A DNA stretch of 64,000 nucleotides. Origin: Eubacteriales Family XIII. Incertae Sedis bacterium (GTDB lineage: Bacteria > Bacillota > Clostridia > Peptostreptococcales > Anaerovoracaceae). Shown here piece by piece: positions 8,445-59,058 of this stretch. A program made the position numbers and the translations under genes. Under the pieces are notes generated by a model. The model had not been told where the DNA came from, searched no databases, and worked only from the letters and a program-made list of their open reading frames with translations. Position 1 is the first letter of the stretch. The number at the start of each line of letters is the position of its first letter. Where the stretch lies: NCBI GenBank assembly GCA_031261345.1, contig JAISKC010000063.1, positions 7,490-71,489 on the forward strand, given 5' to 3'.

Positions 8445-8460
8445 AATTTCTACTCCTCCT

Positions 8461-9723: not shown

Positions 9724-9731
9724 AATCTCTC

Positions 9732-13860: not shown

Positions 13861-13861
13861 C

Positions 13862-17173: not shown

Positions 17174-17207
17174 TACTCCAGAAAAAGCAATTATGTATTA
17201 AGATTTT

Positions 17208-40530: not shown

Positions 40531-43500
40531 CTAGTTTGCCATCGCGCCGCTGTAGTCTATCTTCTCGTTGTCGTCATCCACCTTGTTTCTTAGCTTGTAG
40601 ACGATGAACGTTACGATATGGGCGATGAACACGATGCCGACAAAGAGCGTCCACTTGTTGATCCAAACCATCGGAAGGCTCAGGTCGTCGAAGACGAAGA
40701 AGGTTATCGGCGTCAGTATACCGAAGACAATCGTCAGGACTCTCGCGATGAACGCATTCCTTTCCTTTCTCACCACTTCGGTGCCCGCGTATCTCTCGAT
40801 GTCATTGTCCTCAAATCTGCGCTTCGCAATCTGCCAGACGACCATAAGTATCGAGATGATGATGGCAGCCATCGACATGATCAGCGACAGTAGGCTCCAC
40901 GCACCCTTTCCAAGGAAATTGCCGAGCGGCACATTGCCGTTTGCAAGGTCCGAGAAGAGGTTGCCGGTCTGCGACTCAAGCTTCTGCTGAGTAACCGCAT
41001 TGAAGCCCTCAAAAGCGGTGGCCGTGTTCGTAGGTGTCTCTGAAACGTTCGCATTCGGGCTATTGCCCGCTGATGGGTTCACCGGCGGATTGGTCTCGGG
41101 CTCGGGAGTCTCAGCAATGACTTCATCCCACTGTGCAGTCAGTGTCAAATCCCCTGCCGGCATGGTCAGGGCAGCACCCGATTGATACGTTCTGCCATTT
41201 GAGCCGTTCCAAGAAACAAACTCCCAACCCGTGCGTGCGGGTACCTGCGAAGATACCGTATATGAAGCACCCTCAAGCAGGTCTGAAGTTCCGCTCGGAA
41301 GTCCGGTCACGCCCGTTCCACCCGAAACGTAGCTGACCGTATAGGTATCGGGCTGCGGCGGCTCCACTATCACCTCATTCTGTTTCCAGACAGCGTAGAG
41401 ATTCACATTTTCAGTAATGGTAAGGCTTTCTCCGCCGGTATAAGTCGCCGACGTAGCTGTCGCGCTCTTCGACCAACCAAGGAACTCATGTCCATCACGA
41501 GCAAGTGTATTCACACCCGCCACGGTAGCTTTGCCGCCGTGAATATACGTCTCCGCCTTAGGTGCCTCACCCGACGTGTGAGCGTTTCCATCATACGTTA
41601 CGGTATGACTATCAAGTCCATAGACCGCGTAGAGTGTCGTATTATCCGTGATGGTGAACTCCTTCGTTCCGTCCACTTTGTAATTCGGTGTAGTAGCATT
41701 GGCTTTTGTCGCCCAGCCGGTGAACACACGGTGACTCTTCGTCGGCAGTGGCGTGAACAGCACACTCACCTTATCGCCGTGGTGATAATCCACCTTGCTA
41801 TCTGTAGGTACAGAGCCAGTGCCCCCATTAGCCTTGTATGTTACTGAGTAATTGTCGATTTTCCATTGTGCCACCAAAGTGATGTTGTCTTCGACCGATG
41901 TGATTGTAGCCTTGTTCGCGTAATTGCCCGTGCCATAGCTCGCGCCACCGTCTGTGTATGTCGCCAGCCAACCGTTGAAGTGATAGCCGACCTTCTCGAA
42001 AACATTCGCGGGAATCTTATAGCTCTTGCTGTGTTCTACATTGAGTGCAGAAGTCATAGTGCCGGCTGTCTTCCCATTTCCATCGAATGCAACGGTGTAT
42101 TTGTGCGGAATCCACTTCGCATAAAGCGATAGAGTCGGATCCCCATTTGCACCTTGAACTCCATTCGCGATATTGAGCACAGTACCGATGTTCGCTGCAC
42201 CAAATTCCCATTCAGTGCCGGCAGGACTATTTACATGCCAACCGTCAAATGTATAACCGGTGCGCGTCGGCTCAATGTCCGGAGCACCAGTAATGGTGGC
42301 ATCATATTCGGCACTTTCCTCCTTGGTAGCAAGAAGAGAATCGTCGTTTTGGTCGGTGTAGAGCGTTTCGCCGAGATAATGATAACTGATTTCTACATCC
42401 TTTGCTTCCCACTGAGCTGTGAGCGTCACAGAACCAACCGTGTCAGCTCCTGCAAGCGTTGAATAGGTCGGGTTCAATTCAGATGTATAAACGTTTCCGT
42501 CAAAGTCCGTATCACCGCGATTCGTGAGCTTCCATCCCTTGAAATCATACCCTGGCTTGGTGATCTGAGTTGCTGACGGGAGGAAAACCGTATCGCCCCA
42601 ATGTACAAACGGCACGGGATTGGTGACAGAGCCATCAAACGTTCCGCCATCTGGCAGATACCACACGGTGTATGAATATTGCGACAGCGAAGCCGTAAAT
42701 GTCACAGCCTCGGTGATCTTTGCCTGTAGCAACTGCGTACGATTCATCGGTGTTCCTGCATTGATAACGGTATTGCTACCATCGTTCAGCGTGACTGCCT
42801 TATTCGCCGTCCACACTACTGTTGCCGGATTGTATCCAGTGATAGTGTTTACACCTTGGAATATCGGCGCAATGGTAGGTGACGGCTGTTGATTGTAATT
42901 TTTGTATTCACTTGTCTGAGGAAATGTTGCACCTGTGCCCGCTTTATATGTCACCTCAGAAGCTGCCTTGAGACCTACTCCTGCAAGCTGAGTCTGAGGT
43001 GAGCTGGAGCCTACCGTAAATTCATAAGTGGCACTCGCATGACTTGTAGAGATATTCGACTGAAGAATATCCATATGCCAATCATAATCGGGGCTTGAGC
43101 CTGAAGACCTGTCACTCGGTGTATTTGGAGTAAAACCTCTCTGTACATCGTCGTTGTATATTGTCAAGGTGTAGTCTCCCGCCTTGAGATAATATGGAGT
43201 GCCGCCGGAGGTGAGGGAGGCAAAGTCGCCATTGTCTTCCACATCTATATTGAGCAGACTGATGGTATCTCCCGCAAGAGTTGCACTCACACCGCTCAAT
43301 CCTGTGAATGATTCTCCGGCATCTTTAATTCCATCCACGTCGAGATCGTTGAAGACGTTGCCTATTACACCAGCGGTAGCCGGCTCTGCGGCAAGTATCG
43401 AACCAAAGGTCCATACGCTTGAATCGCCGTCAGCTTGTTGCCATCCTTTCTGGTAACTGCGCCAATAGTTGGGCTCTCCCATAGGTGCGTTGTTGTCAAC

Positions 43501-46500
43501 TGCCATTTCAAAGGTTGTAAAGCCTTTTGATCCCGATTCTCCGACTTTAGCAATCTGTCTGTTTGCCACGAACTTGACCATCGTTACATTTTCATATGTG
43601 TCAACCAGTCCTTCTATAGCACTTGCATCTACCCATGGTCCGTCATATGGGACCCAGTCCTTATCTACATTCCCTCCATAATTGGTTGTGCTTGATGTAC
43701 TAGTACTATAGTATGTATCAAAGCCGTCAAGACTTATCGGTCCAGTAAGATTGCCGGTCCATTGCGGCTCAGAAACCACCACATTCCCTGATGGATTTGT
43801 GATTTCCTTATTGTTGAAATAGTGATCGTAATTTATGCCTTCCTTGGGGATGGACAGATAGATTTCAGATCCCTCATAATAACTTCCCGTAGATGTATTT
43901 TCATACTGTAGCCAGATCTCTGCATTGGCATCGGGTGTAACCGGTGCCACGGTTGCAGCAGTACCATTATATGTATAATAAGGACCTGTATCGCCTACGG
44001 TGCGAATACCCAAAGAGATGGTCAACCCTTGTTTCTGCAATACGGCGATATTTTGGCTGCTGGTCGCCGCTGCCAATTTGTATGCAGTGCCTTTCCCTGC
44101 CCAATTATTGGCATCTGCAACCGATGTGCCACCGCCATCAGCTGTTGCAGACTTTCCAAGGTCATATAATACAATATCTTTGGCAAACAACTCCGGATAT
44201 TTCGCTACTGCACTCGATACATTGGCGGAAAATTTGAGAGTGAAGACATTGCTGACAAATCCATTACCGGCCATGTTACTACTGGCATTGGCGATAATGT
44301 CATTTGGATTATATACAGCCAAATGATACGTAGTCCACGGGACACTATTGACCAATTTGGTTTCTGAACCTTTTAATTGTAATTTGAAAGGCGTATCAAC
44401 ATGATTGCCCGCTTTTGAAACTACCCGAATGCTATCCACATCCAAATCAAGTCCTTCAGGAAGTGAAATATAGACATCCGGATCTTTAATGTCCTGACTG
44501 GTTCCGACATATCTATCGGTAGCGTTATATACGCTGGTAAAATACATCGTATCATCAGGGAAAAATGTTCCGTTTTCGGTCGTTGAGCTTTCACTGTGGC
44601 TGGCAACCGTAGTGGTATCGCCAGCGCGAACATTGTCCCACCTTATAACCGGAGTCCCTGTTGATGTGTAGGTGTTACCCAATGCATCAGTAATGGTCAG
44701 TGTCACAGGACCACTTTTGCCGTTTTGGAAACGACCGTAAAAGAATCCGCCCATGCTGACATAAGTGTTGTTATACCTGCCAGGACCTAATTGTGGCTGC
44801 GTAAATGTCATATCAAGAAGGTATTCATCTGCTGCGAGCCCAAGGAACTCCGCCCGAATCATGCTGGCACCCAATCCGGAGTTTATTGCACCCACCGGCA
44901 GTGTGCTGGTTCCTGACTTCGTTATTGTCCTCCCTTTGTTTGTATGTGCAACCAAATCTTTGATTCGATTGTTGTTCGCAAGGCCATTATTCGTGGAATA
45001 GGGAATGCTGATTGCTCGGATTGCCAGATTTGGGCTGAATGTATATTCATAGACGGCATTGGGTGCAGCAATTGAGCCCCAATTTTCAATATAAAATTGA
45101 CCTAAGGCATAGTCATATGGATAGTCTCCATTTTCGTTCAAATCACGACGTGCATTATTTAGCAGCCCCCAAATGCCAAGTTTAACATTTGGCGTTGACG
45201 GCGTGACAGTATAACTTGTATTGCGCAAAGGATGTACCTGTGGGTCGCCCCCTAAGGTTCCCGATGTTTCCACATATGTACCATTGAAGACAATGCCCTG
45301 GCCCCATTTAAATTGAGAGTTATCAATGGTTACGCCGTCCCAGTACAATCTGAATTGCGTATCTGCTGCGATAGTTGTCTTGTCCATTGTAAAGGTTATC
45401 GTGCGATTTGATGCATCATGTACAACTGAAAGGTGTGAGCCATATGTTGCACTTGTTGTATCGGTTGGATGATTGAATCCATCGATATAAAATCCCTTAT
45501 ATGTCACGCCTTCCGGATAGGTTATTGTCATGACGGAGTGATCGGAAAAGTGTCTTCCAACAGCCCCGTGACCTAATTTAAATACGGTTGAGAATGCGGC
45601 AATCGTGCCCTTGGTTGCATCCTCTGTATTTACAGTTCCCGCAAGAGATAGAGTATCGCCGGTAAAAGGTGTCACAGGAATTCCTGTTACAGTTGTACTC
45701 AAATGATCGCTAAAGTTTTTATCGCCGCTCTTCATGGTGACGGTAATGTCATTCATGGAAGCAGTTGTAGCGTTATGGGGGAGAAGCATTTCGTCCAATT
45801 CGAGGGTGAGCACCATGGCAACTTGGGTTACATTGGAATTGAACGTATAGACAACTTTCCCATCGTAATTTCGATATGATTCTTCGGTGTTATAATAAGG
45901 CTTGTTATACCCTGTTATGAGTTGAGATGCCCAAGCGGAGCCATCAAAAGCGGTTAGATCCGCACTTGCTATCATGGCATCGTCCTGAGCTGATAGACCC
46001 AGTTTGCCAACGCCATCAATATCCGCCGTAGTTTCTTTTGCCGTGTACTCGGTGATTTTATATCCCTTTGGAATTATTATTTCAACTTTTCTTTCCTTGT
46101 CTGAACCCTGCCCAGAAAACTTGGCTGTGATTTCTATCTGCTTTTGTCCGAAAGTTAATGGCCAAGTAATGGCATTATTAATGCCGGAGTCATCCACATC
46201 TACAAATTCTGGAGTGGAAACCTTTAGTGTTAGACTGTCATCAGAATCACCCTGAGAGAGTGAGCCAATCTCACCCTGTGTGGATTCCGGCTCGGAGCCC
46301 ACGTTCGCGCCTGTGCCCTCACTGTCATTGCGGGCTATGTGCCCCAACGGGGTATGACCCGCAATCCATTGTTCGTTTGGAAGCGCGTCCTCCGGCAGGT
46401 TTGTCTCCGTTTGATTTTCGGGTATTGCTACCTCTACCGTCTTAGTGACCTCATCATTTACCGAGGGGTCTACAGAATACCCCCCCCCCATTGGAAGAAT

Positions 46501-46603
46501 CTGCCATTACAAACTGTGGCATCACAGCTACGAATAGCATAATTACGGTCAAAATTACCGCCAGTACCCTCTTTTGATTTCTAATACTCCCTAAATTAGA
46601 CAT
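40531..46603 (-). CDS. giant surface protein A (InlB-B/Listeria-Bacteroides-repeat protein), reading frame broken at a G10 tract as sequenced
   Basis: - Track ORF 46454..46636 supplies the RBS (GGGGAGGA), ATG 46603 and a signal peptide (KRVLAVILTVIMLFVAVMPQFVMA/DSS).
- The 1986-aa ORF 40531..46491 has no signal peptide, and the two frames meet inside the G10 tract.
- Domains: SdrD-B-like VIGNVFNDLDVDGIKDAGE and 6 Flg_new-type repeats (GYDFKGW, GYTFDGW, GYHFNGW, VFTGW, HEFLGW, WEFVSW).
- It has three C-terminal TM segments and no LPXTG. Confidence 0.8.
46480..46489 (-). repeat. homopolymeric G10 (coding strand) in gene A
   Basis: Counted directly: 10 consecutive C on the plus strand. Confidence 0.95.
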
Positions 46604-47877: not shown

Positions 47878-48024
47878 AGCATTACCCCCATGTTTCTTGA
47901 CGTTGTTCCTGTTCTGTTTCTGTGATTTAATAAATTTATATCAAAACGAATTGTCGCGGACTACACCCCAAGATTTTTTTTTAAATAAGTAATTTTGGGG
48001 TGATGTTTGCGACAGACATAGCGG

Positions 48025-48036: not shown

Positions 48037-50592
48037 ATGGTTACACAATCGACAATAAATGTGCCGGTAATTCCGGACAATAGCCTTGTTTTGCTCGACA
48101 GGCCACGCATAGACGGCCTCTTGTCTTCCGTGCTCAGTAGCCCCGTGGCGACCATCGTTGCAGGATCGGGCTATGGCAAAACTGAGGCGGTCTACTCATT
48201 TCTACGGAAACAGGATCTCACGATCATCTGGGTGCAGGTATCGGAGCACGACAACGAAATGACAAGATTTTGGGGCGATTTCTCCGGTGCCATTTTTTCG
48301 GCTAACAAAGATCTCTCAAAGCAAATGTTAGATATGGGCTTTCCGTATGACGGCATATCGTACAACAAATATGCCGACGCTGTATCGGACGCCTTGACCG
48401 TTACGAGAAATTACGCCCTCGTGATTGACGACTTTCACAATATTCACAATCCCGATATTTTGAAGTTTTTCGAGAGGGGTCTTCAGATGCCTCTTGCAAA
48501 TATGCACCGCATATTCATATCGAGGGAAAACCCGAGTATCGTAACTGCAAACTACCTACTTACGGATCATTTCGCCCATCTAAACGAGGATGATTTGCGG
48601 TTCACAAGAGATGAAATGAAACAGCTTTTTGCCCTTCAAGGGTTGAAACTTTCGCCAGATACAATAGAGAAAATCTATTCCGACACTGACGGCTGGGTCT
48701 TTGCCATACAGCTCATCGGCTTGTTTTTCAAAAGGAATCCCGGGCAGATAGGCTATGCAGTCGATGCGATGAAGTCGAATGTATCCAAGCTGATCGACAC
48801 GGAAATCTTCTCTGAGATTCCCGAAAAATTACAGCATTTTCTGATCAAAATGTCTCTGATAAACCACCTTTATCCCGATTTGCTCCGTGGGCTTGATGAC
48901 GGCGAGGCATGCATGAACGAGCTCCGCAAAATGGACTCCTTTGTCAGGTATGACGACTATTTGAACACCTATCGTATCCATCAGCTGTTCCTTGACTACC
49001 TGAAGGATAAGCAGCGGCTTTTGTCCGAGCAGGAGAAACGCAGCACGCTGGATGTTGCGGCAAACTGGTGTCTTCTTCAAGACGACATTTCCGAGGCCAT
49101 TCACTACTACGAAGAGCTCGGCGACTATGACCGGATTGTGGAACTCGCATACAAGCAGTCGATGCTCTTGCCGCAGGGTGTCGGCTCCTACATATTGAAC
49201 ATTTTTCGTAATGCGCCTGCCGAAGCGTTTGAGCGAAACGGAACGATGACGGTCGTATTCGCCAGGCTTTTGATAGCTCTCGGTCACATCAAAGAAGGCG
49301 AAAACTTTATCACATCTACGATAGAAAGGTATGAAAAATTGCCTGAATCTGGCCACAAGGATCGCATCCTCTGTGGGCTATACAACAACCTCGGGTTTCT
49401 CGGTTTGATAAAGAGTCCGACCACGTCGGAATATGATTTTGCGGCTCACTTTATGCGTGGCGATGAATACTTCAGAAAATGCGACATCAAGGTGCTCGGG
49501 GCGGTTCGGTCTGTAAATCTCAGCCCTTACATTACTAGGGTCGGGAAACCGGAGGCGGGCGGACCGGAAAAATTCATCGAAGCGGTCTCGGAATCAATCC
49601 CATATATCTCACATTCCATGAATGGCTGCATGTACGGCATGGACGATCTGGCACGCGCCGAGCTGTCGTTTTTCCGAGGTGAGCTTGAAAATTGCGAGCA
49701 GTTTTCGTTCAGTGCCCTCTACAAGGCGAGGGAACGCAGTCAATACGAAATCGAAAATCGCGCCCTGTTTTTCCTCCTGAGAACAAATCTGGCGAACGGA
49801 AAATATGAGAAGGTCCGCTCCATTCTCTATCAAATCGAGGCTCAACCGGAGATGTCCGACTACGCGACAAAGTATTTCATGAAGGATATACTGACGAGCT
49901 GGTTTTATGCACAGATTGGTCACACCGAGCGTATGGCCGACTGGATTACTAAGGACTTTGAGGAGTCAGAGGACAACTATCTGACGCGCGGACTGGAATT
50001 TTTCACAAAAAACAAATTCTACATGGTCGAAAAACGTTACCACAGACTGCTCGCAATTCTGGAAAGTCAAGACACCGAATTGGGCATCGGCTCACTCCTC
50101 TACGGAAAAATCGGAATCATGACGATGAAGGCAATCTGCCTCTATCACCTCAAGGAGCGCAAGGCGGCACTCAGGGCCTTCGAGGAAGCCTACACGCTGG
50201 CGATTCCAAACGCCCTCGACATGATTTTCATTTCAATGGGCAACGACATGCGCGTCTTGAGTGGGTACGCGCTGAAGAACGCCTGCAACATTCCTAGGGA
50301 CTGGCTGGAGACGATAGGGCGAAAATCATCCACCTGCGCAAAGCGGTATGCTCACATCAGATCCAACTTTGACAGGGACGAGGAACTGAGTAATGAAGTG
50401 AACCTATCGAGTAAGGAACTCGAGGTTCTCACGGATTTGGCGCACGGACTGTCCAGATCGGAAATCGCAACCGCACGAAACATTTCCATCAACACGGTCA
50501 AGACCATGCTGCCCCTCATCTTCCGGAAACTCGACGCGAACAGCACAATAGACGCCATACGAATAGCGGTCAAAAGCGGAATTGTGAAGTGA
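48037..50592 (+). CDS. MalT-like large ATP-binding LuxR-family regulator
   Basis: N-terminal P-loop AGSGYGKTEAV and Walker B ALVIDDFH. Central helical/TPR-like region. C-terminal LuxR HTH LSSKELEVLTDLAHGLSRSEIATARNISINTVKTM. Confidence 0.85.
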   Translation: MVTQSTINVPVIPDNSLVLLDRPRIDGLLSSVLSSPVATIVAGSGYGKTEAVYSFLRKQDLTIIWVQVSEHDNEMTRFWGDFSGAIFSANKDLSKQMLDMGFPYDGISYNKYADAVSDALTVTRNYALVIDDFHNIHNPDILKFFERGLQMPLANMHRIFISRENPSIVTANYLLTDHFAHLNEDDLRFTRDEMKQLFALQGLKLSPDTIEKIYSDTDGWVFAIQLIGLFFKRNPGQIGYAVDAMKSNVSKLIDTEIFSEIPEKLQHFLIKMSLINHLYPDLLRGLDDGEACMNELRKMDSFVRYDDYLNTYRIHQLFLDYLKDKQRLLSEQEKRSTLDVAANWCLLQDDISEAIHYYEELGDYDRIVELAYKQSMLLPQGVGSYILNIFRNAPAEAFERNGTMTVVFARLLIALGHIKEGENFITSTIERYEKLPESGHKDRILCGLYNNLGFLGLIKSPTTSEYDFAAHFMRGDEYFRKCDIKVLGAVRSVNLSPYITRVGKPEAGGPEKFIEAVSESIPYISHSMNGCMYGMDDLARAELSFFRGELENCEQFSFSALYKARERSQYEIENRALFFLLRTNLANGKYEKVRSILYQIEAQPEMSDYATKYFMKDILTSWFYAQIGHTERMADWITKDFEESEDNYLTRGLEFFTKNKFYMVEKRYHRLLAILESQDTELGIGSLLYGKIGIMTMKAICLYHLKERKAALRAFEEAYTLAIPNALDMIFISMGNDMRVLSGYALKNACNIPRDWLETIGRKSSTCAKRYAHIRSNFDRDEELSNEVNLSSKELEVLTDLAHGLSRSEIATARNISINTVKTMLPLIFRKLDANSTIDAIRIAVKSGIVK

Positions 50593-50617: not shown

Positions 50618-51787
50618 TTAGGCGTCGCCGGAATAGTTGCCTATCACAAATGACCTTTCCAGAATGACGGACTTATCGTCCCTGTTTGGAAGCGTACACC
50701 TTAGGAGATATTCCCCATCATGTTTCTGACCGACAAGCCTGTCCAGCTCAGTGCTCACAGTGGCTTCGTCGCCTGAAAAAACCACGGCACCATCCGCCTC
50801 GGTTACTATTTCCCAAACCTGCGTCCCATCACCTTCCAGAAGATTCACAGCTTCAAATCCCTGTGGATTGATATGACCACATTCACAATCATCGGAGATA
50901 AGGAGAATTTCACGCCCGCCCGAATCAACCAAAATTCCAGTCGCAGCGTCCTCTGAATTACTGAGTGATAGACCCGCAAATGCGATGCCGGAGACAACGA
51001 CCATTGTCGCTATCAAACCAACTACGAAATTCCATATCCGCGGCTTCCCTGCGGCAGGCAACGCCTTACCATCGATTGCGCCCATCCATTTCTGCGCAAA
51101 CAAATCCATACTTTCGTCCGGCAGGCTGTTCATCGCCTTGAGCCGTAGCGACTTGCCCATGACCGTGGACGTGGCAGGAAGACCAGCTCCCGCGCCGCCC
51201 AGACCCACGCCGAGCAATGTGCCGATATTTTCACCTTCCTGTGTAAGTTTTTTCTTCAACATCATTCTCGCCTTCGTAATATTTGAGGAAACTGACTTTT
51301 CCGAGATTTTCTGAACTTCCGCGATTTCTTTGTAACTCAACCCCTCATAGTAATACATGATGATGGCATCACGCTTCGCCGCGGAAAGCGAAGACACATA
51401 TCCGTATAGCTTTTCACTCAAGGCAGAATCCTGTGCATACGCTTCAGGCAGAAATTCCCGATTTTCCTCTTCGAGGACGATGTCTTCATCTTCTATGTCA
51501 ATTTCCTTCTGTTTGCGCGCGTGCGTCCTGAATATCGCATAGCACTCATTTCTGACAATCCGTTCAATCCAGACATTGATAGCAACCGGATCCTTGAGCC
51601 TCCGAATGTTCTTGTGCATCTTCAAGATGGCCTCTTGTGCAGCATCTTCAGCGTCCGGATAATTTCCCATGACAGACAGCGACACGAACATCATGTCGCG
51701 CTGCTTCGCAAGGCACAGATCCTCAAATGCCTTCAAATCACCCTTGATGGCCTTCCTTGCCAATTCAACGATTTCCGCTTTAACCAA
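50618..51787 (-). CDS. sigma-70-family (ECF-like) sigma factor fused to a TM segment and extracytoplasmic C-terminal domain
   Basis: Region 2 DAEDAAQEAILKMHKNIRRLKDPVAINVWIERIVRNEC. Region 4 AIIMYYYEGLSYKEIAEVQKISEKSVSSNITKARMMLKKKL. TM segment IWNFVVGLIATMVVVSGIAFAGL followed by about 110 aa. TTG start. Confidence 0.75.
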   Translation of the reverse strand: MVKAEIVELARKAIKGDLKAFEDLCLAKQRDMMFVSLSVMGNYPDAEDAAQEAILKMHKNIRRLKDPVAINVWIERIVRNECYAIFRTHARKQKEIDIEDEDIVLEEENREFLPEAYAQDSALSEKLYGYVSSLSAAKRDAIIMYYYEGLSYKEIAEVQKISEKSVSSNITKARMMLKKKLTQEGENIGTLLGVGLGGAGAGLPATSTVMGKSLRLKAMNSLPDESMDLFAQKWMGAIDGKALPAAGKPRIWNFVVGLIATMVVVSGIAFAGLSLSNSEDAATGILVDSGGREILLISDDCECGHINPQGFEAVNLLEGDGTQVWEIVTEADGAVVFSGDEATVSTELDRLVGQKHDGEYLLRCTLPNRDDKSVILERSFVIGNYSGDA

Positions 51788-51918: not shown

Positions 51919-54900
51919 TCATGCAATCGCTCTATTTCCCTCTTCTTCGTCCTCCGCGTATTCATGTTTCCTGACTTTGTAAACAACGAGCACTACGATA
52001 TGCAAGATGAAGACTATGCCGACGAAGAGCGTCCACTTGTTGATCCACGCCATCGGCAGGCTCAGGTCGTCTAGGATAAGCCAAACAATCGGTGTCAATA
52101 TGCCGAGGATAATAGTGGCAACCTTCAGCATCTTTCCACGCCTGCGACGTTCTTCCTCCTCATCGCGAACCCCGCCATCCCGTGCGTAGCCCGTGAGCTC
52201 ATCTTCATTATCTTCACGCCTCTTGCGGGCGATAGCTCCAACAATCAACAGTATCGAAATAACGACAGCCACCAGGGACATGATGAGGCTGAGTAGACTC
52301 CAAGCATTACTGGAGAAGAAATTCCCGAGCGGAACGTTGCCGTTTGCGAGGTCGTTAAATATATTGCCCGTCTGTGCGTCATACTTCGCCTGATCCGATG
52401 TAACAGGTGAAATCTCATTAGTAACCGTTGGAGGATTCGCCGGTGGGTTCGCTTCAGGCTCCTTTGGCTCCACAATGACCTCTTCAGGTTCGGGAGTGAT
52501 ATCCATAACACGATTCACAATCGGAGGATTGACGACCGGCGGCTCCACTATCACCTCATCCTTCTGCCAAACGGCATAGAGCTCAACATCCCGCGTCAGC
52601 GTGACGACATTTCCCTTCGGGTGGCTCACAACGCCGGAGACTGCACCCTCAGCCCAACCGAGGAATGAGTAACCATCCCTTGCGAGCGTGTTCTGCCCAT
52701 TCACTATGACTTGACTTCCGTGACTGAGAGTAACAGCGTCCGGAGCCTCACCTGATGTATGTCCATTGCCATGATAAGTCAGGCTGTGGCTATCGGGCCC
52801 ATAAACCGCATAGAGTATCGCATTTCCAGTAATATTGAAGCTTTTCGTCCCCTCCACCGTGTAGGTCGGCGCAGTAGCTGCCGCAGTCTTCGCCCAACCG
52901 AGGAACACGCCATGATCCTTCACAGGCAGTGGCGAGAACTGAACCTCCACATTATCGCCATTATGGTAGTCAACCTTGCTATCCGTAGGCACAGAACCCG
53001 TGCCCCCATTGACCTTGTAGACAACACTGTAATTGTTGATTGCCCACTGCGCAGTCAATGTGATATTCTGTGTTATCCCATTTATCGTCCCAATCGTGCC
53101 ATATGCGCTAGGCTCACATGGCGATCCGCTATCTGTAAAGGTAGCTATCCAACCCGTCAAATGATGATTTTGTAATGAAAACCCGTTTGCCGGTATATTG
53201 TAGTTTTTCCCATAGGCCACATCGCCGGGAAGCATATATCCAAATCCACCATTACCCTCAAAAGTAACTACATAGCGCAGCGGCTCAAGACTTGCAGTGA
53301 ACGTGATATTCTCCGTGATCTTCGCCTGAAGCACCTGATCGCGGGTCAATACAGAGCCTGCACCTTTGACCGTATTATTGCCATCGTTAAGCGTTACAGC
53401 CTTATTTGCTTTCCAAACAACCGTGGTATAGTCATAACCCACTTCTACTCCTTGAGCTACGTTGACTACAGGAACGACGGATGCCGTAGGCTGCTGATTG
53501 TGATTTCGATATTCACTTTCGGTAGCAAACGAAGCTCCCGTTCCGGCCTTATACGTAGCGAGTGCAGCATCATGCAAGCCGACGCCCACGAGTTCCGTAG
53601 ACAATGTAGTGTTGGAAACCGTGAAATTGAACGTGGCGGAAACATGAGTATTGGACACATTTCCCTGCGGCACATCCATGTACCAGTGATCCACAGCACT
53701 TCCTCCTACGCCGGTGGTATTTGACCTCGTTCCCGATGTTGTAGTCGTGAAGCCCCTCTGTATACTCTCATCAAAAATCGTGAGCGTATACTCCCCCACT
53801 TTGAGATAGTAAGGTGTCAGCCCGTTTGAGCTAAGCGAGGCAAAACTGCCATCTGGATTCACAACAATATTCAAGAGCGAAATCGTCCCTGTTTGGGAAG
53901 TGAGCGTCGCACTCACATGGTCAAGATTTGTAAAGTTCTCTCCTGCATCTAGGATTCCATCAGAGTCCTTATCATTGAAGATTTTGCCCTTGACGCCAGC
54001 CATAGCAGGCTCCGCCGCCAAGACAGAACCGTAAACCCAACTACCTTCGCCGGCAGCCGTCCTCCAACCCTTCTGATAACTCCGCCAGTAATCAGTCTGC
54101 CCAAGCTGCGCATCGGAAGCAACCGCGACATCAAATGTAGTTTCGCCCGAGGACCCCTCTAGCCCTGACGCCGCTATTGTTTGATTCGCCACAAACTTGA
54201 CCATCGTTACATTGGCGAAATCGCCTGAAAGGTCGGAAACCTGCGCGGCTGTAAGCCATTCGCCCGCGTAGGGTTTCCATGCATTGATTACTTCTTCCGC
54301 CGAGCCACTTTCGGGAGCAGGATTCGTCGTTCCCGAAGTGCTCACGCTATAGGTCGCCGTGAAGCCCGGAAGAGTGAGCGGACCGGTCAGCAAGGCTGTC
54401 CAAGCCGGTGCTTCATTCGTCTCGACTCCATATGGATTCGTCGTCTCAATATTGTTGAATATTCGATTGTAGCTCACGTTCTTCTTGGGAATAGGCAAAT
54501 AAATTTCCGTGCCTGGATAGTATGTATCGCCAGAGGTGTTTTCATACTTTAGCCAAACCTCGGCCGGCCGGTCGGGAGTAACAGGAGCCACTGTGGCATC
54601 ACTGCCATTGTATGTGTAATATGGATCAGTGTCGCCTGCCGCACGAATGCCGAGGTAAACATTGAGCCCGGGCTTTTGAACCACGGCGATGTTGTTGGAA
54701 TATTTCGCACCAACCAGATTGTAGCCGGTGCCATGCCCAGCCCAATCGTGGGTATCCAGCAAAACGCAATCCTCTGAACCATATGTTGCATTCACGGCAG
54801 ATGTTCCCAAATCAAGTAGGACGATATCCTCTGGGTCCAGCTCGGGAAAAGCGGTGGCGGCACTTGATACCTTAGCGGTGAAATATAGTGCTGATTCACC

Positions 54901-57483
54901 CGGGTTCCCTGTCATGTTCTCGGCTTCAGATATAATATCCTGATGTGCAGGTGCCCTAAAGTGATATGCTATCCATTCAACACCATTTATCAGTTTCGGC
55001 TCAGAAGAGCCAAGAAGTGTCAGCGGAAATTCTGCATCGCCATGATTGCCGGCAGACGAAACGGCTCTTGCACTATTCACATCCAAGTCAATCCCTCTTG
55101 GTAGTGCAACATAAATATCGGGGTCAACTATGTCAGCACTGTCACCATTCCACGTACGACCGCCATAAAACCATGAATTAATATACATCGTGTCGCCCGG
55201 ATAAAATGATCCCGTATTTGTGCCATCTGGATTATGACTGGCTACGGTATACATAGAACCGGCACCCTTGTTTGATGTAGCTTTGCTCGTCGTTGCATAA
55301 CCGGTTGCAAGCACACCTTCATCCTTGTCCTTGATGGTTAGATTGACGGTTCCGGCCTGACCGTTTTGAAGCCTTCCATAATACGTTCCGGCACCATAAG
55401 TCCAATATTCATCGTTGCCGCTTGCATAGACCGATAGACGGTCCTGTGTAATAGTAAGGTCGGTCAAGAATTCATCTTCGGCTAGCCCCAAATCTTCCGG
55501 CGTGAGTGCGTAAGCATAGTTGGTCCAAGGTAGTGTGAAAGACGTTGAATACGTTATTGTTCGTGTTGCACCGGATTTCGTCTTCGCATGTGCAACGACA
55601 TTTCTGAAGTGAGAGTCATTATACCCTCCCGGAATCCTAATCCCACGTACGGCAAGTGCATCATCAAAAGTATAGAAGTATGTGATATCCTCAGCAATAC
55701 TCGGGCCATCGTTCATGACAACGAGCTGCCCCAGACCATAGTCGTGAGGATAATCCCCGTTCCAGTTGAGATCGCGCCTTGTTCCATCGCCAGATTCTAT
55801 TCGTATGTTGACATTCGGTTTCTGAACGGTCACCCAAGTTACCACCGGACCATAATTTTGGACTACTGGATGACCTGACTCAAAGCCAGAGTTGGCGACA
55901 TATTCGGCAGGAAAAACCAAAGTATCATTCCATTTTATTAGGTCGTTATCTACTGAGCCAGTCCAATATAAGACAAAAGTATTTCCGTAACCAATAAGGA
56001 CGTTTGTATAAGAGAAAGTCACAGTTCGTGCCGTGGGATTGTCCTCTACAAGTAGATGTCCGTTGGCGTAGCTGCCGGTCGTTCCGCCTTGTTCGTTTAT
56101 TCCTTCCCAAAATCCCTTGAACTCAAGACCCTCAGGATAGTGAAATGTAAATGTTGCCGAATCTGATAAGAAATCATCAGAAGACCAATTCTGATTGATT
56201 ACAGTAAATCTTATGGAAAATTGCGGTATTTCACCTTTATCCTCATCCACATCCACAATCCCAGCTACGGTCGGGGTCTGGTCCTCATTGAATTGATTCA
56301 CCATCTGAAACTGCATCATATTTGTAGAAGTTGCCACCAGTTCATCTGACAAATTTGCGGCTCCACTCACAAGATCCACTGTAATGGCATCCAGTACGGC
56401 GGTATCGGTAGCTCTCGAAAGCATAGCGTACTGAAGATCGAGGGTAAGTGTCAACACGATGTGATCGCAGTTTGAATTGAAAGTGTAAGTCACTTTTCCA
56501 TCGGAATTATGAGGCTGCAAATCATTCGGGCCATATCCTGCATACCCCAAAACCACTTGATCTGCCCAAGATCCGCCATCAAGCGCTGTAAGAGATGCAC
56601 TTGCAACCTTGGACTCCGACTCCGAAGACAAATTTATCTTAGATACCCCTTCGATTTCAGGAGTACTCTCCTTCGCCGTGTATTCGATTATCTTGTATCC
56701 ACGTGGCACATTGACAGTGATGATTCGATCCTTATCCGTGCCCTGCTCCGAAAAGTCAGCTGTGATACGAATCTGCTTATTGCCACTTTTCCATGGCCAG
56801 TCGATTGCGTTTGATATACTACCGACTTCAACAAAAGCCGGATTGGAAACCTCGAATGTAAGATTATTACCATTACCATCGGTTTGACTCAAAGGGGCAA
56901 CATCATCACCAAGCACATCAATGTCCAGTTCCTGCACTATGGATTGGTCTTTATCATTGTCATACTGCACTTCACCCACTGGAATAAGGTCTTCAAATGC
57001 CGCTTCAAACGTGGTGTCCCTCGATACGACAAATTCACCGATAGGAGCATAGCCCTCTGTTACTGCCAGCCTTTCGTCAGCCGTGTACATAGTTTTGCTT
57101 TCATCTTGGGTATCTATCCAGCCAAGGAATCGGCTGTTTTGGGATTCGGGGATGAAGTCCAAAATGACTGTTTCTTCATCGCTTTCAGATTGCGAATCTT
57201 GGTCCGCAATGACGGATTTTACCTCTTCATCTGTCGGGAGAATGTCCATCGGCAAGTTTACTTCTACTTGTCCTTCAGGTATCGCAACTGCCTCCGTCTT
57301 AATAATATTGTCATTTACTGTAAATCTTAGAGAATATACCCCCCCCCCATTGGAATTATTTTCCAGTTCGTTATCTGTTGCCATAGCAAACTGTGGTAAC
57401 ACAATGCCTAGCAACATTACTATTGTCATTGTGATAGCCAGCCACCGTTTGTGACCCAAAGTACGATTTGTATTAGTATTCAT
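51919..57483 (-). CDS. giant surface protein B (paralog of A), intact
   Basis: - ATG 57483 is preceded by GGGGGGAA, and the signal peptide is KRWLAITMTIVMLLGIVLPQFAMA/TDN.
- The N-terminal ~1000 aa are collinear with A.
- Domains: SdrD-B-like GKIFNDKDSDGILDAGE and 4 Flg_new-type repeats.
- It has the same C-terminal 3-TM anchor (NVPLGNFF..AWSLLSLIMS). Confidence 0.85.
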   Translation of the reverse strand: MNTNTNRTLGHKRWLAITMTIVMLLGIVLPQFAMATDNELENNSNGGGVYSLRFTVNDNIIKTEAVAIPEGQVEVNLPMDILPTDEEVKSVIADQDSQSESDEETVILDFIPESQNSRFLGWIDTQDESKTMYTADERLAVTEGYAPIGEFVVSRDTTFEAAFEDLIPVGEVQYDNDKDQSIVQELDIDVLGDDVAPLSQTDGNGNNLTFEVSNPAFVEVGSISNAIDWPWKSGNKQIRITADFSEQGTDKDRIITVNVPRGYKIIEYTAKESTPEIEGVSKINLSSESESKVASASLTALDGGSWADQVVLGYAGYGPNDLQPHNSDGKVTYTFNSNCDHIVLTLTLDLQYAMLSRATDTAVLDAITVDLVSGAANLSDELVATSTNMMQFQMVNQFNEDQTPTVAGIVDVDEDKGEIPQFSIRFTVINQNWSSDDFLSDSATFTFHYPEGLEFKGFWEGINEQGGTTGSYANGHLLVEDNPTARTVTFSYTNVLIGYGNTFVLYWTGSVDNDLIKWNDTLVFPAEYVANSGFESGHPVVQNYGPVVTWVTVQKPNVNIRIESGDGTRRDLNWNGDYPHDYGLGQLVVMNDGPSIAEDITYFYTFDDALAVRGIRIPGGYNDSHFRNVVAHAKTKSGATRTITYSTSFTLPWTNYAYALTPEDLGLAEDEFLTDLTITQDRLSVYASGNDEYWTYGAGTYYGRLQNGQAGTVNLTIKDKDEGVLATGYATTSKATSNKGAGSMYTVASHNPDGTNTGSFYPGDTMYINSWFYGGRTWNGDSADIVDPDIYVALPRGIDLDVNSARAVSSAGNHGDAEFPLTLLGSSEPKLINGVEWIAYHFRAPAHQDIISEAENMTGNPGESALYFTAKVSSAATAFPELDPEDIVLLDLGTSAVNATYGSEDCVLLDTHDWAGHGTGYNLVGAKYSNNIAVVQKPGLNVYLGIRAAGDTDPYYTYNGSDATVAPVTPDRPAEVWLKYENTSGDTYYPGTEIYLPIPKKNVSYNRIFNNIETTNPYGVETNEAPAWTALLTGPLTLPGFTATYSVSTSGTTNPAPESGSAEEVINAWKPYAGEWLTAAQVSDLSGDFANVTMVKFVANQTIAASGLEGSSGETTFDVAVASDAQLGQTDYWRSYQKGWRTAAGEGSWVYGSVLAAEPAMAGVKGKIFNDKDSDGILDAGENFTNLDHVSATLTSQTGTISLLNIVVNPDGSFASLSSNGLTPYYLKVGEYTLTIFDESIQRGFTTTTSGTRSNTTGVGGSAVDHWYMDVPQGNVSNTHVSATFNFTVSNTTLSTELVGVGLHDAALATYKAGTGASFATESEYRNHNQQPTASVVPVVNVAQGVEVGYDYTTVVWKANKAVTLNDGNNTVKGAGSVLTRDQVLQAKITENITFTASLEPLRYVVTFEGNGGFGYMLPGDVAYGKNYNIPANGFSLQNHHLTGWIATFTDSGSPCEPSAYGTIGTINGITQNITLTAQWAINNYSVVYKVNGGTGSVPTDSKVDYHNGDNVEVQFSPLPVKDHGVFLGWAKTAAATAPTYTVEGTKSFNITGNAILYAVYGPDSHSLTYHGNGHTSGEAPDAVTLSHGSQVIVNGQNTLARDGYSFLGWAEGAVSGVVSHPKGNVVTLTRDVELYAVWQKDEVIVEPPVVNPPIVNRVMDITPEPEEVIVEPKEPEANPPANPPTVTNEISPVTSDQAKYDAQTGNIFNDLANGNVPLGNFFSSNAWSLLSLIMSLVAVVISILLIVGAIARKRREDNEDELTGYARDGGVRDEEEERRRRGKMLKVATIILGILTPIVWLILDDLSLPMAWINKWTLFVGIVFILHIVVLVVYKVRKHEYAEDEEEGNRAIA
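57339..57348 (-). repeat. homopolymeric G10 (coding strand) in gene B, in frame
   Basis: Counted directly: 10 consecutive C on the plus strand. It encodes GGG plus the first base of the Val codon. Confidence 0.95.
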
Positions 57484-57666
57484 TTGATTCCCCCCGTATA
57501 TAAAGAGTAGTATTGTTCTACAAACGCACAAAAACCTGTGTCATTTGCCCCCGTCGGCGAATCCGACAGTTCTATGATGTCAGAGGCCACAAATTCCCTG
57601 CCATTATCGGAAAAAAATTTGAGCCAACAACATCCTCAAGCATTACAACCCAATTGTCGTACTTAA

Positions 57667-57695
57667 TATATACCCAAAAATCAGGGCTTTAAACA
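57667..57695 (-). promoter_or_regulatory. putative promoter of gene B (motif shared with gene A)
   Basis: Minus strand reads TGTTTA-17 nt-TATATA with GGG upstream of the -10. It lies about 185 nt upstream of the ATG. Confidence 0.45.
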
Positions 57696-57749
57696 TAAAA
57701 TCCAATATTTTTACGAAAAATTTACTGTACTATACAAAAAGTTTGCTCT

Positions 57750-58829
57750 CTACAGGATATTTCTGTGCCAGATGCCGCAGGCTCCTTCGGAGGAGACCAT
57801 GCAGGGACCGATTGGATTGTTCGGCGTGCAAGCGGTAGCAAAGAGCGGGCAGTCCATTGGGTCAATTCGGCCAGTAATGATGTCAGAGCAACGGCAACCT
57901 TCGGCCTCGCCCGCCATGCCCGCGGCGGCAGATGCATCTATGGCTTTGCGCAGATGATCCGGTAGCTCGGGACTGATGTCATACTCGGCAAACTCCGGAC
58001 GTAGCCTGAATCCCGAATTTGGAATAGTGCCCAGCCCTCGCCAAGCAGCGTCATAAGGCTCAAAGTATTCGGCAAGTTTTGCCTGTGCCTTGAGATTTCC
58101 CTCACCCGAAACGACCTCTTCATATTGATTCACCACCGCGCCAGTAGGAGTTCCCAACGCCAACTTCACGAGCGTATATATCGCCCGCACAATCTGCTCC
58201 TCTTCAAACCCCGCTACGACAAACGGGCGACCATATTTTTTGGAAAGAGACACAAACGCATCAGCGCCCGTGATGACACTGACATGCCCCGGCGCGATGA
58301 AACCGGAAATCTCAGGCTCATTTTCGCAAATCCATTCAATCGCCGAAACGGTATTTTTCAAGGCGGTCAAGAGCTTTATGTTCACAAGTCCGCGGCTACG
58401 TATCTCATCGATGAGGAGTGCAAACGCCGGTGCCGTGGTCTCAAACCCAACGGCAGCCACGACAAAAGTTTCATCGGGGAATTCTTCCGCAAAGTCAATC
58501 GCCTCGAAGGGAGAATATATCATCTTGATTTCGCTGCCCATAGCAATAGCGGAAGAGAGCGTTTCACTTTCTCCCGGCACCTTCATCATATCGCCGAAGG
58601 AAAGAAGAGTGTGCCGCGGCGTATCCGAAATCTCAACACAGGCATCTATGAAAGCGGGGGGCGTTACGCAAACAGGACACCCCGGCCCCGAAACGAGCCG
58701 GATTCCCTCCGGCAAAATCGAACGAATTCCACTCTTGAAAATACTCGCGGTATGAGTCCCGCAAACCTCCATAAGCTTCAGAGGCTCCCCCTCATAATCC
58801 TCAAGAAAATCTATCATATCCATTATCAT
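57750..58829 (-). CDS. hypD: hydrogenase maturation protein HypD
   Basis: MEVCGTHT and GPGCPVCV motifs. It overlaps the hypC stop (ATGA). Confidence 0.9.
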   Translation of the reverse strand: MIMDMIDFLEDYEGEPLKLMEVCGTHTASIFKSGIRSILPEGIRLVSGPGCPVCVTPPAFIDACVEISDTPRHTLLSFGDMMKVPGESETLSSAIAMGSEIKMIYSPFEAIDFAEEFPDETFVVAAVGFETTAPAFALLIDEIRSRGLVNIKLLTALKNTVSAIEWICENEPEISGFIAPGHVSVITGADAFVSLSKKYGRPFVVAGFEEEQIVRAIYTLVKLALGTPTGAVVNQYEEVVSGEGNLKAQAKLAEYFEPYDAAWRGLGTIPNSGFRLRPEFAEYDISPELPDHLRKAIDASAAAGMAGEAEGCRCSDIITGRIDPMDCPLFATACTPNNPIGPCMVSSEGACGIWHRNIL

Positions 58830-59041
58830 ATCAAGTCCTCGATTTCTCCGAAAATTTTGAGTATCTCCGAAGCCTTCTCCTCGTTCATAGCCTCAATCGC
58901 CATGCCCGCATGGACGAGCACATAGTCTCCCACGCGGACGTCCACAACTCCGATGTTCACGCCGACAACATTACCTCGAAAATCAACCTTCGCGGTCCTC
59001 TCATCTATCTCCATCACCCTGCCGGGATAAGCCACGCACAT
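58826..59041 (-). CDS. hypC: hydrogenase maturation chaperone HypC
   Basis: 71 aa with the N-terminal MCVAYPGRV motif. Confidence 0.9.
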   Translation of the reverse strand: MCVAYPGRVMEIDERTAKVDFRGNVVGVNIGVVDVRVGDYVLVHAGMAIEAMNEEKASEILKIFGEIEDLI

Positions 59042-59058
59042 AAAATCACTCCTATTTT

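What the first reader, a model, noticed from the sequence alone, without database searches (positions are those of the whole stretch)
57331..57360. Paralog B carries the same G10 tract at the same position but in frame, owing to a compensating TA
Gene B has 10 G at 57339-57348 on the coding strand, 12 codons after its signal-peptide cleavage site. It reads AAT GGG GGG GGG GTA TAT TCT (NGGGVYS).

Gene A reads ..AAT-G10-TAT TCT, whereas gene B reads ..AAT-G10-TA-TAT TCT. The two paralogs therefore sit in different phases for an identical tract length. A single +1 or -1 slip would switch A on and B off, or the reverse.

Retention of a long G-run in both copies at a position that tolerates Gly insertions argues for selection of the tract rather than chance.
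Basis: seen in the sequence. Interest (0 to 1): 0.7.

Follow-up and report, generated by a model that had tools for sequence, protein, structure and literature searches.

The report
Poly-G on/off switch in adhesin genes
A run of ten G's just after the export signal of a giant surface-protein gene is very probably a slippage-prone on/off switch; it is shared by several sister genes and by relatives in other uncultured gut Clostridia, so it is a well-known kind of switch in a group where I found no description of it.

Summary
Gene B (minus strand, 57483..51919, 1854 aa) carries G10 at 57339-57348 and reads in frame as AAT-G10-TA-TAT-TCT. Paralog A carries G10 at 46480-46489 without the TA and is out of frame.

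The tract is not chance:
- Two G10 runs are seen against 0.03 expected, while runs of 6-9 are under-represented.
- GGG is the rarest Gly codon in these genes.
- The same tract (G8-G11) sits at the same place, just after the signal-peptidase site, in five further genes fetched from other contigs and genomes sharing 42-47% protein identity.
- Further short N-terminal fragments that end just after Gly-Gly-Gly are on record.

Five of the six distinct genes read at DNA level are out of frame by one slip. Each still has an intact ORF of about 2000 codons downstream. Two assemblies of a third paralog from the same MAG differ by one G.

Best explanation: classic slipped-strand phase variation of a multigene family of membrane-anchored (FILTED domain), InlB-B-repeat surface proteins in uncultured Clostridiales Family XIII bacteria. 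B is the only copy ON in this assembly.

No coupling between A and B is implied, and only a -1 (or +2) slip turns A on. Switching itself is not shown, because no read-level data were available.

It is a new member of a known kind, closest to Gardnerella nanH3 and the Bifidobacterium pilus G-tracts.

The parts
57339..57348 (-). G10 homopolymer of gene B, in frame (codons GGG GGG GGG G-TA)
   Evidence: G7, G10 and G13 give the full ORF. G8, G9, G11 and G12 give stops after 51-57 codons.
57335..57338 (-). (TA)2 directly 3' of the tract. Gene A has a single TA here, and this 2-nt difference puts B in a different phase register from A.
   Evidence: Pairwise DNA alignment; multi-locus alignment.
57379..57483 (-). 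Predicted Sec signal peptide of B (MNTNTNRTLGHKRW-LAITMTIVMLLGIVL-PQFAMA), with likely cleavage after AMA.
   Evidence: Read from the translation. The n-region, h-region and A-x-A are conserved in all tract-bearing relatives. No signal-peptide predictor was available, so this is inferred.
57490..57495 (-). G6 run that forms the Shine-Dalgarno-like GGGGGGA 6-12 nt upstream of B's ATG
   Evidence: inferred function
51919..57483 (-). Gene B, a 1854-aa surface protein. Order of parts: signal peptide, poly-G, N-terminal module, a conserved central region of about 1100 aa with no Pfam family, Flg_new/TIGR02543 (InlB B-repeat) repeats, and a C-terminal FILTED membrane anchor.
51961..52302 (-). C-terminal FILTED domain (membrane anchor) of B, aa 1728-1841
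   Evidence: NCBIfam NF052597, 85.4 bits against a cutoff of 40
46480..46489 (-). G10 homopolymer of paralog A, out of frame. ON would need G9 or G12.
46454..46603 (-). 5' fragment of paralog A: signal peptide, DSSN-GGG, then 9 out-of-frame codons and a stop.
   Evidence: The same fragment is on record as a separate small ORF, P0074, called from an upstream GTG start.
40531..46479 (-). Intact downstream reading frame of paralog A (about 1983 codons), 43% identical to B. It is annotated in GenBank as MDR0854178.1, starting at the ATG formed by AAT+G.
50618..51787 (-). Context: an ECF-type sigma-70 factor with a long C-terminal extension. Homologs lie next to tract-bearing adhesin genes at two other loci, so it is a possible transcriptional regulator of the family.
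   Evidence: The regulatory link is inferred from synteny only.
48037..50592 (+). Context: a MalT/LuxR-type STAND regulator, also present beside the sigma gene in L002.

Best explanation
The G10 run in gene B is the switch element of a contingency locus, that is, a simple-sequence-repeat phase-variable gene.

Proposed mechanism:
- During replication the homopolymer gains or loses a G by slipped-strand mispairing.
- The tract lies right after the signal peptide, so any length that is not in register stops translation within about 4-12 codons after the tract.
- The cell then makes only a signal peptide plus a short tail, and the roughly 1800-aa membrane-anchored surface protein is absent.
- A later slip restores it.

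B is in the ON register (G10) in this assembly. Paralog A (G10, register 9/12) and at least three other paralogs of the same genome are OFF. Each paralog has its own tract and its own register, so the population can hold many combinations of these surface proteins.

Shown: the tract, its position, the frame consequences, its conservation across genes and species, the excess of out-of-frame states with intact downstream ORFs, and a one-G difference between two assemblies of one paralog.

Inferred: that length changes are frequent, reversible and selected, and that the proteins are adhesins.
For: (1) Frame logic. For B, A and the relatives in L001, L002, L006, L007 and L008, only every third tract length gives the long ORF. 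All other lengths stop 23-59 codons into the sequence read from each locus (also for B, A and L001).

(2) Conservation. The tract occurs at the same site in distinct genes:
- L001 (Clostridia bacterium MS499-83): G11
- L002 (Family XIII MAG Hs463_bin135): G8
- L006 and L007 (JGI 3300042601): G9 each
- L008 (Logan SRR14710919, paralog C): G9
Across about 79 kb of fetched loci these tracts (including L005, which is the window's own B tract) account for all but one of the G/C runs of 8 or more.

(3) Nucleotide-level selection. GGG is the rarest Gly codon in these genes (14%). Seven of the eight other Gly triplets in the same genes use mixed codons; the eighth (L006 aa 2, GGGGGGGGC) is the tract itself. 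G/C runs of 6-9 are depleted in the window.

(4) Out-of-frame excess with intact ORFs. Five of the six distinct genes read at DNA level (A, L001, L002, L006, L007) are one slip from ON and have a single uninterrupted frame of 1957-2303 codons after correction. Paralog C is also OFF, but its contig ends after 107 open codons, so its ORF cannot be checked. More OFF-type N-terminal fragments are on record (P0062, P0075-P0079).

(5) Length difference between assemblies. Paralog C ends ...MGGGIS* in the Logan assembly, where G9 was read directly. It ends ...MGGGYLLA* in the GenBank MAG (P0073), which requires G10 on the same flanks.

(6) Surface location. B has a signal peptide, Flg_new/TIGR02543 repeats, and a FILTED C-terminal anchor scoring above the curated cutoff.

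(7) Precedents with the same layout. Gardnerella nanH3 has poly-C 8-14 immediately after the signal peptide, is ON at 9 or 12, and has a C-terminal TM anchor (bioRxiv 10.1101/2020.09.16.300947). Bifidobacterium breve pilus genes have intragenic G-tracts whose replication slippage was measured (PMC9187656).
Against: - No read-level or multi-strain data were available, so the frequency and reversibility of slippage are not shown.
- B's tract is G10 in both available assemblies: the window and Logan contig L005, which is an exact substring of the window.
- The one-G difference in paralog C could be an assembler's choice at a homopolymer.
- Only 1 of about 12 scorable genes or fragments is ON. That is fewer than the one third expected from free drift among phases (P about 0.05, with non-independent data and possible detection bias). 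Some copies may therefore be decaying, or expression may come from another route.
- Homologs that lack the N-terminal module (L003, L004, P0006-P0012 and others), and one that has it (P0063), have no tract, so the switch is not universal in the family.
Confidence: 0.75

Rival explanations
1. RNA-level or translational recoding. The G-run makes RNA polymerase (or the ribosome) slip, so 'out-of-frame' genes are still expressed at a low, set level. On this reading the tract works as an attenuator rather than a heritable ON/OFF switch. It may act together with DNA slippage.
For: Out-of-frame is the commonest state, and the downstream ORFs remain intact. Long homopolymers are known slippery templates (general knowledge). 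The Bifidobacterium work (PMC9187656) focused on replication slippage at comparable G-tracts.
Against: The shift needed differs from gene to gene: -1 for A, L001 and L006; +1 for L002 and L007; and either -1 or +1 for C depending on the assembly. There is therefore no conserved direction, as a programmed frameshift site would have. No stimulatory hairpin or pseudoknot was looked for or seen. The Bifidobacterium study attributed expression to replication slippage (abstract).
Confidence: 0.1
2. Decay rather than switching. The tract is merely a mutational hot spot, and the out-of-frame copies (A and most relatives) are recent pseudogenes of a redundant family. B is simply the copy that is still alive.
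For: Only one ON copy was found among about 12. The family is multi-copy and modular, so redundancy is plausible.
Against: In each of the five OFF genes with a complete downstream sequence, the only lesion in about 6 kb is at the tract. The rest is one open frame of 1957-2303 codons. The tract itself is kept as pure G8-G11 across lineages with 42-47% protein identity, although a single synonymous change would remove the liability. That pattern implies selection for the tract.
Confidence: 0.08
3. Sequencing or assembly error at homopolymers. All copies are really in frame, the tract simply encodes a Gly3 linker, and its length is stable.
For: Homopolymers of 8-11 G are error-prone in sequencing and assembly. 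The one-G difference between two assemblies of paralog C could be such an error. Logan contig L005 ends 13 nt past the B tract.
Against: Out-of-frame calls recur in independent data sets and pipelines: a GenBank MAG, a separately deposited Clostridia genome (MS499-83), JGI metagenomes and Logan. B's length agrees between two assemblies. A protein-level Gly3 requirement would not keep GGG codons only.
Confidence: 0.07

Closest known systems
Gardnerella piotii nanH3 sialidase poly-C tract (bioRxiv 10.1101/2020.09.16.300947)
   Same: The homopolymer lies immediately after the signal-peptide-coding region, about 100 nt into the ORF. Lengths are 8-14, with ON at 9 or 12. OFF gives a peptide of about 40 aa that contains only the signal peptide. 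Automatic annotation splits the gene or starts it downstream. The product is a large cell-surface protein with a C-terminal transmembrane anchor.
   Different: The tract is poly-C (Pro codons) rather than poly-G (Gly codons). The organism is an actinobacterium, not a member of the Clostridia. It is one enzyme gene, not a family of at least five paralogous adhesin-like genes. Length variation there was demonstrated by clone sequencing; here it was not.
Bifidobacterium breve sortase-dependent pilus G-tracts (bbr_0113, bbr_1889; PMC9187656)
   Same: An intragenic G-tract in surface-structure genes of a gut commensal. Equivalents are conserved in several species of the genus. Expression depends on replication slippage, and one productive length was enriched in vivo.
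   Different: Those genes encode LPXTG/sortase pilins. The proteins here have no LPXTG motif and carry a FILTED-type membrane anchor instead. The phylum and GC content differ. Slippage was measured there and not here.
Listeria monocytogenes inlA 5' poly(A) tract (PMC2831843)
   Same: A homopolymer at the 5' end of a gene for an internalin-type surface protein in a Firmicute. A frameshift gives a very short product. It was proposed as reversible gene inactivation.
   Different: The tract is poly-A and is present only in some strains. It gives an 8-aa product, so it lies far earlier in the gene than the tract here. It is not conserved across species and is not part of a paralog set.
Classical contingency loci of Campylobacter, Neisseria and Helicobacter (poly-G/C in surface-structure genes)
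   Same: G/C homopolymers of 8-13 within ORFs, multiple independently switching loci per genome (a 'phasome'), and genes related to surface or host interaction (own knowledge; background in PMC9187656).
   Different: Those are Gram-negative pathogens with experimentally measured switching. Here the organisms are uncultured Clostridia (Family XIII MAGs), and the tract position is fixed directly after the signal peptidase site in every member.

Membership tests
Simple-sequence-repeat phase-variable gene (contingency locus) | Homopolymer or short repeat long enough to slip (about 8 nt or more for G/C) inside the ORF or promoter | tested here: met
   G10 at 57339-57348 (B) and at 46480-46489 (A)
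Simple-sequence-repeat phase-variable gene (contingency locus) | Length changes move the gene between a full-length frame and frames with early stops | tested here: met
   In silico length series: only every third length is open, and the others stop 43-59 codons from the start codon.
Simple-sequence-repeat phase-variable gene (contingency locus) | Tract length is polymorphic within or between populations, and reversibly so | tested here: inconclusive
   Paralog C is G9 in the Logan assembly and G10 (inferred from the protein tail) in the GenBank MAG. Homologous genes occupy all three phases. B is G10 in both assemblies. No read-level data were available.
Simple-sequence-repeat phase-variable gene (contingency locus) | Tract is maintained beyond what coding needs explain | tested here: met
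   The tract is always pure G, although GGG makes up 14% of Gly codons. Seven of eight other Gly triplets use mixed codons, and the eighth is the L006 tract itself. It is conserved in seven genes. Runs of 6-9 are depleted.
Simple-sequence-repeat phase-variable gene (contingency locus) | Observable ON/OFF phenotype that switches at high frequency | not testable with these tools
   The organism is uncultured and no expression data are available.
FILTED domain-containing surface protein (NCBIfam NF052597) | C-terminal FILTED domain scoring above the curated cutoff | tested here: met
   B scores 85.4 bits and A 74.6 bits against a cutoff of 40.
InlB B-repeat / Listeria-Bacteroides repeat proteins (Pfam PF09479, TIGR02543) | One or more Flg_new repeats above the gathering score | tested here: met
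   B scores 62.7 bits (2 stretches) and A 140.9 bits (6 stretches) against a cutoff of 27. The GenBank name of A is 'InlB B-repeat-containing protein'.
LPXTG sortase-anchored adhesins (MSCRAMM-like) | C-terminal LPXTG motif followed by a hydrophobic stretch and a positively charged tail | tested here: not met
   No LPXTG is seen in the C-terminus of B or A (by eye in the translations). Several hydrophobic, apparently membrane-spanning stretches of the FILTED type are present instead. The SdrD_B hit is below cutoff.

The most novel reading that the evidence does not exclude
The 'signal peptide + poly-G + N-terminal module' may be an old, portable switch cassette. It has been kept for a long time in uncultured Family XIII and related Clostridia, and it is attached to different passenger domains: the conserved central region in A and B, and LRR_5 in L007/P0057. 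On this reading each genome carries five or more independently switching, mostly-OFF giant surface proteins, which together form a combinatorial surface repertoire. A conserved membrane-linked ECF sigma factor and a MalT-type regulator next door would add a second layer of control. If the relatives' record names (termitidis, MS499, Hs463) do reflect arthropod-gut origin, this would be phase variation used by gut symbionts rather than by pathogens.
Probability: 0.4. Interest if true: 0.6.

Novelty: new member of a known kind. Interest (0 to 1): 0.45.

Why it matters
Homopolymer phase variation is textbook biology for mucosal pathogens. It has only recently been shown in commensals such as Bifidobacterium and Gardnerella.

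Here the same device appears in a family of very large, otherwise uncharacterised surface proteins of uncultured Clostridia. It sits at a strictly conserved position in the genes fetched, there are several copies per genome, and most copies are OFF in the assembled consensus. Two consequences follow.

- **Annotation.** Automatic annotation systematically mis-calls these genes. It reports split ORFs, missing signal peptides, and 48-87-aa 'hypothetical proteins'. MAG-based inventories of adhesins in such bacteria therefore understate or mislabel them.
- **A testable system.** This is a concrete case for asking whether gut symbionts use stochastic surface switching, for example against phages or for attachment. 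The test is a simple read-level assay on existing metagenomes.

Tried and rejected
Searches that led nowhere:
- The search for homologous proteins with B residues 1-900 returned nothing, although A's product is in the collection. I take this as a limit of the word index, not as absence of relatives.
- The metagenome scan returned only one short homolog, without a tract.
- Exact look-ups of B, A, the A fragment, the HD protein, P0062, P0002, P0073 and P0072 were not on record. DNA for paralogs D and E and for the GenBank copy of C could therefore not be read; their state is inferred from the protein sequences.
- The first representatives job failed on profile length.
- Literature searches for SRR14710919 and Hs463 gave nothing relevant. 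The habitat remains unconfirmed.
- There was no PDB sequence relative.

Explanations considered and rejected:
- **Terminator-like hits over A's tract.** These are G-run/TTCTTCC pairings with G-T pairs and no real T tail, so I count them as artefacts of the scan.
- **Two-colour-chemistry poly-G read artefact.** The tract is internal, is flanked on both sides by homologous coding sequence, and recurs in data from several sources.
- **G-quadruplex.** This is a single run only.
- **Programmed ribosomal frameshift.** There is no consistent direction of shift.
- **Mechanistic coupling or anti-correlation of A and B.** They are separate tracts 10.9 kb apart, and I found no shared element.
Full report
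**1. The observation**

On the minus strand, gene B starts at ATG 57483, preceded by a GGGGGGA Shine-Dalgarno-like run. It reads MNTNTNRTLGHKRWLAITMTIVMLLGIVLPQFAMA|TDNELENNSN-GGG-VYSLRF... The Gly codons and the first base of the Val codon form exactly ten G at 57339-57348. The ORF is open for 1854 codons, to 51919.

Paralog A starts at ATG 46603 and has exactly ten G at 46480-46489. It reads ...VMA|DSSN-GGG-VFCRPLGK-stop, while the +1 frame continues as YSVDPSVNDE... to 40531.

A and B are 43% identical over about 1500 aligned residues. Around the tract the DNA is identical, TTCCAAT-G10-TATTCT, except that B has TATA where A has TA.
- In B, 10 codons rather than 12 separate the likely A-M-A cleavage site from the first GGG.
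- A is turned on by -1 or +2, not by +1.

**2. More than chance**

From base composition the window should hold 0.034 G/C runs of exactly 10, and it holds two. Both are at the homologous codon of two paralogs. Runs of 6-9 are depleted: 5 observed against 10.8 expected for length 6, and none against about 3.3 expected for lengths 7-9.

**3. What the genes are**

- Both proteins have an N-terminal signal peptide.
- A module of about 140-150 aa follows the tract.
- A conserved region of about 1100 aa follows, with no Pfam family above threshold. pAdhesive_6 and SdrD_B hits are weak.
- Listeria-Bacteroides/InlB B-repeats come next (PF09479; TIGR02543).
- The C-terminus matches NCBIfam NF052597, 'FILTED domain-containing surface protein', well above the curated cutoff.
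- No LPXTG motif is seen, and there is no sequence relative in the PDB.

The A product is in GenBank as MDR0854178.1, 'InlB B-repeat-containing protein', from a MAG of 'Clostridiales Family XIII bacterium' on an 80,468-bp contig. It is annotated as starting at the ATG formed by AAT+G of the tract, and so without its signal peptide.

The family is small: 71 representatives at 50% identity among 1.84 billion proteins.

**4. Relatives**

Tract state in every gene whose DNA could be read (coding strand):

| Gene / locus | Source | Observed | ON register | State |
|---|---|---|---|---|
| B (window) | Family XIII MAG | G10 | G7 / G10 / G13 | ON |
| A (window) | same MAG | G10 | G9 / G12 | OFF |
| L001 | Clostridia bacterium MS499-83 | G11 (AAC-G11-TTCCG) | G10 | OFF |
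| L002 | Family XIII MAG Hs463_bin135 | G8 (AAT-G8-TCTTAT) | G9 | OFF |
| L006 | JGI 3300042601 | G9 (GATTCTTCCAAT-G9-CGC) | G8 / G11 | OFF |
| L007 | JGI 3300042601 (LRR_5 passenger) | G9 (AAT-G9-TATCTCC) | G10 | OFF |
| L008 = paralog C | Logan SRR14710919 | G9 (ACAT-G9-TATCTCC) | G8 / G11 | OFF |

Points that follow from these loci:
- The genome-collection scan gave three loci. L001 and L002 share 42% and 47% identity with the query and carry the tract at the same place, right after ...AMA-NS(S/D)N. The third, from Dysgonomonas termitidis (L003), lacks the N-terminal module and has no G/C run of 7 or more; its N-terminus was not inspected directly.
- L007 shares the N-terminal module and the C-terminal anchor with B but has an LRR_5 passenger region instead.
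- L008 belongs to the same strain as the window. A second contig of that run (L005) is an exact substring of window 57326-59046.
- Correcting the tract alone gives single ORFs of 1957-2303 codons for L001, L002, L006 and L007. L008's contig ends after 107 open codons.
- Among all fetched loci (about 79 kb), these tracts (including L005, which is B again) account for all but one G/C run of 8 or more. The exception is an intergenic C8 in L002.

A profile of the N-terminal fragments found further small 'hypothetical proteins' of 48-87 aa. Each consists of the signal peptide, Gly-Gly-Gly and at most a few residues before a stop (P0062, P0075, P0076, P0077, P0078, P0079). P0074 is A's own fragment, which has a nine-residue tail.

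Three more proteins come from the same MAG as the window:
- P0062 (LBN34_08870)
- P0073 (LBN34_04565, which is paralog C)
- P0002 (MDR0854564.1, called from a start downstream of the tract)

That genome therefore holds at least five such genes.

Homologs without the N-terminal module (L004, P0006-P0012 and others) have ordinary signal peptides and no tract. One protein with the module (P0063) also lacks it.

**5. Nucleotide-level conservation**

In the six long genes, GGG is the rarest glycine codon (14% pooled). Seven of the eight other Gly-Gly-Gly stretches found in the same genes use mixed codons; the eighth is the L006 tract itself. At the tract every member uses only G, across proteins that are 42-47% identical and whose flanking DNA aligns poorly. 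A requirement for three glycines cannot explain this. Selection for the homopolymer can.

**6. A hint of length variation**

Paralog C ends ...IYMGGGIS* in the Logan assembly, where G9 was read directly. In the GenBank MAG it ends ...IYMGGGYLLA* (P0073). On the same flanking sequence that tail requires G10.

B's tract is G10 in both assemblies. The Logan contig stops 13 nt beyond B's tract, which is compatible with an assembly break but proves nothing.

**7. Mechanism**

The anatomy is that of a classical contingency locus:
- The homopolymer is long enough to slip.
- It lies early in the ORF.
- Stops occur in both alternative frames within a few codons.
- The product is surface-exposed.
- There are several independently phased paralogs.

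The best explanation (confidence 0.75) is replication slippage that gives heritable, reversible ON/OFF expression of each surface protein. B is ON and the other copies are OFF in the consensus of this population.

The TA difference between A and B is one of several register differences in the family. ON lengths are 8, 9, 10 or 11, which is what one expects when flanks drift around a tract that is itself hypervariable.

Nothing links A to B mechanistically. The 'toggle' reading is not supported.

Only about 1 in 12 scorable copies is ON, fewer than the one third expected from free drift (P about 0.05; the data are non-independent and detection may be biased). This may mean OFF is usually favoured, as reported for the Bifidobacterium pilus tracts outside the host (PMC9187656). 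It may also mean some expression comes from transcriptional slippage.

**8. Rivals**

| Rival | Confidence | Main point against |
|---|---|---|
| Recoding at RNA or ribosome level | 0.10 | The required shift has no consistent direction. |
| Pseudogene decay | 0.08 | The tract is the only lesion in about 6 kb, in five genes, and the tract is conserved. |
| Homopolymer sequencing or assembly error | 0.07 | Out-of-frame calls recur across independent pipelines, and only GGG codons are used. |

**9. Comparison with known systems**

The closest layout is Gardnerella nanH3:
- poly-C of 8-14 directly after the signal peptide
- ON at 9 or 12
- a C-terminal TM anchor
- the same annotation problems

Bifidobacterium breve pilus G-tracts and the Listeria inlA poly-A tract are further Gram-positive precedents.

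Differences here:
- The taxon is uncultured Clostridiales Family XIII and related Clostridia.
- The protein family is FILTED-anchored with InlB B-repeats.
- The position is strictly conserved among the tract-bearing genes fetched.
- There are several copies per genome.

Keyword searches of the paper library turned up no description of this tract in this protein family or taxon.

**10. Verdict**

It is a new member of a known kind.

Interest is moderate. It is not surprising to a specialist in phase variation, but it gives a clean, testable case in gut-associated Clostridia, and it corrects systematic mis-annotation of these genes.

Noticed in passing
window 50618-51787 (-) and 48037-50592 (+); L008 4805-5968; L002 2293-4893 and 4943-6160: An ECF-type sigma-70 factor with a long C-terminal extension of about 200 aa lies next to tract-bearing adhesin genes at three loci (42% and 27% identity to the window copy). 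A MalT/LuxR STAND regulator accompanies it in the window and in L002. This suggests a dedicated transcriptional control layer for the family.
   Followed up: partly
L007 87-6023 (P0057): This protein has the same poly-G site, N-terminal module and FILTED C-terminal anchor as B, but its central region is LRR_5. The switch-bearing N-terminus and the anchor therefore appear to be shared between different passenger domains.
   Followed up: partly
window 9657-9665: An A9 run on the coding strand lies at about codon 20 of a 420-aa hypothetical ORF (8461-9723, minus strand, no Pfam hit). It could be another 5' homopolymer switch, or just AT-rich sequence.
   Followed up: partly
window 1-18000: A low-GC block (32-40%, against 45-52% elsewhere) encodes a patatin-like phospholipase, a STAND-like NTPase, an AAA ATPase and an M4 (thermolysin-type) peptidase. 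It may be an acquired island, perhaps defence-related.
   Followed up: partly
window 47974-47982: A T9 run lies in the short divergent intergenic region between the HD-domain gene (47191-47877, minus) and the MalT/LuxR regulator gene (48037-50592, plus). It could affect promoter spacing.
   Followed up: no
window 57490-57495: The ribosome-binding site of gene B is itself a G6 run (GGGGGGA), 6-12 nt upstream of the ATG.
   Followed up: no
L002 15258-15265: This is the only other G/C run of 8 or more in the fetched loci. It is an intergenic C8 just 3' of two copies of a direct repeat of about 45 nt, upstream of a 202-aa ORF, and is unrelated to the adhesin family.
   Followed up: partly
L005 (= window 57326-59046): The Logan contig of run SRR14710919 that carries hypD and the start of gene B is an exact match to the window and ends 13 nt past the G10 tract. 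That could be an assembly break at a variable homopolymer or simply low coverage.
   Followed up: no
window 51919-57483: Gene B's own product could not be found in the protein collections, neither by exact look-up nor by profile search, although A's product and A's N-terminal fragment from the same contig are there. The reason is unknown. B may be annotated as a pseudogene or with another start in the public record.
   Followed up: partly
window 38642-40198 (+): A DnaJ-domain protein with a C-terminal DUF6273 domain is encoded just downstream of, and convergent with, paralog A.
   Followed up: no
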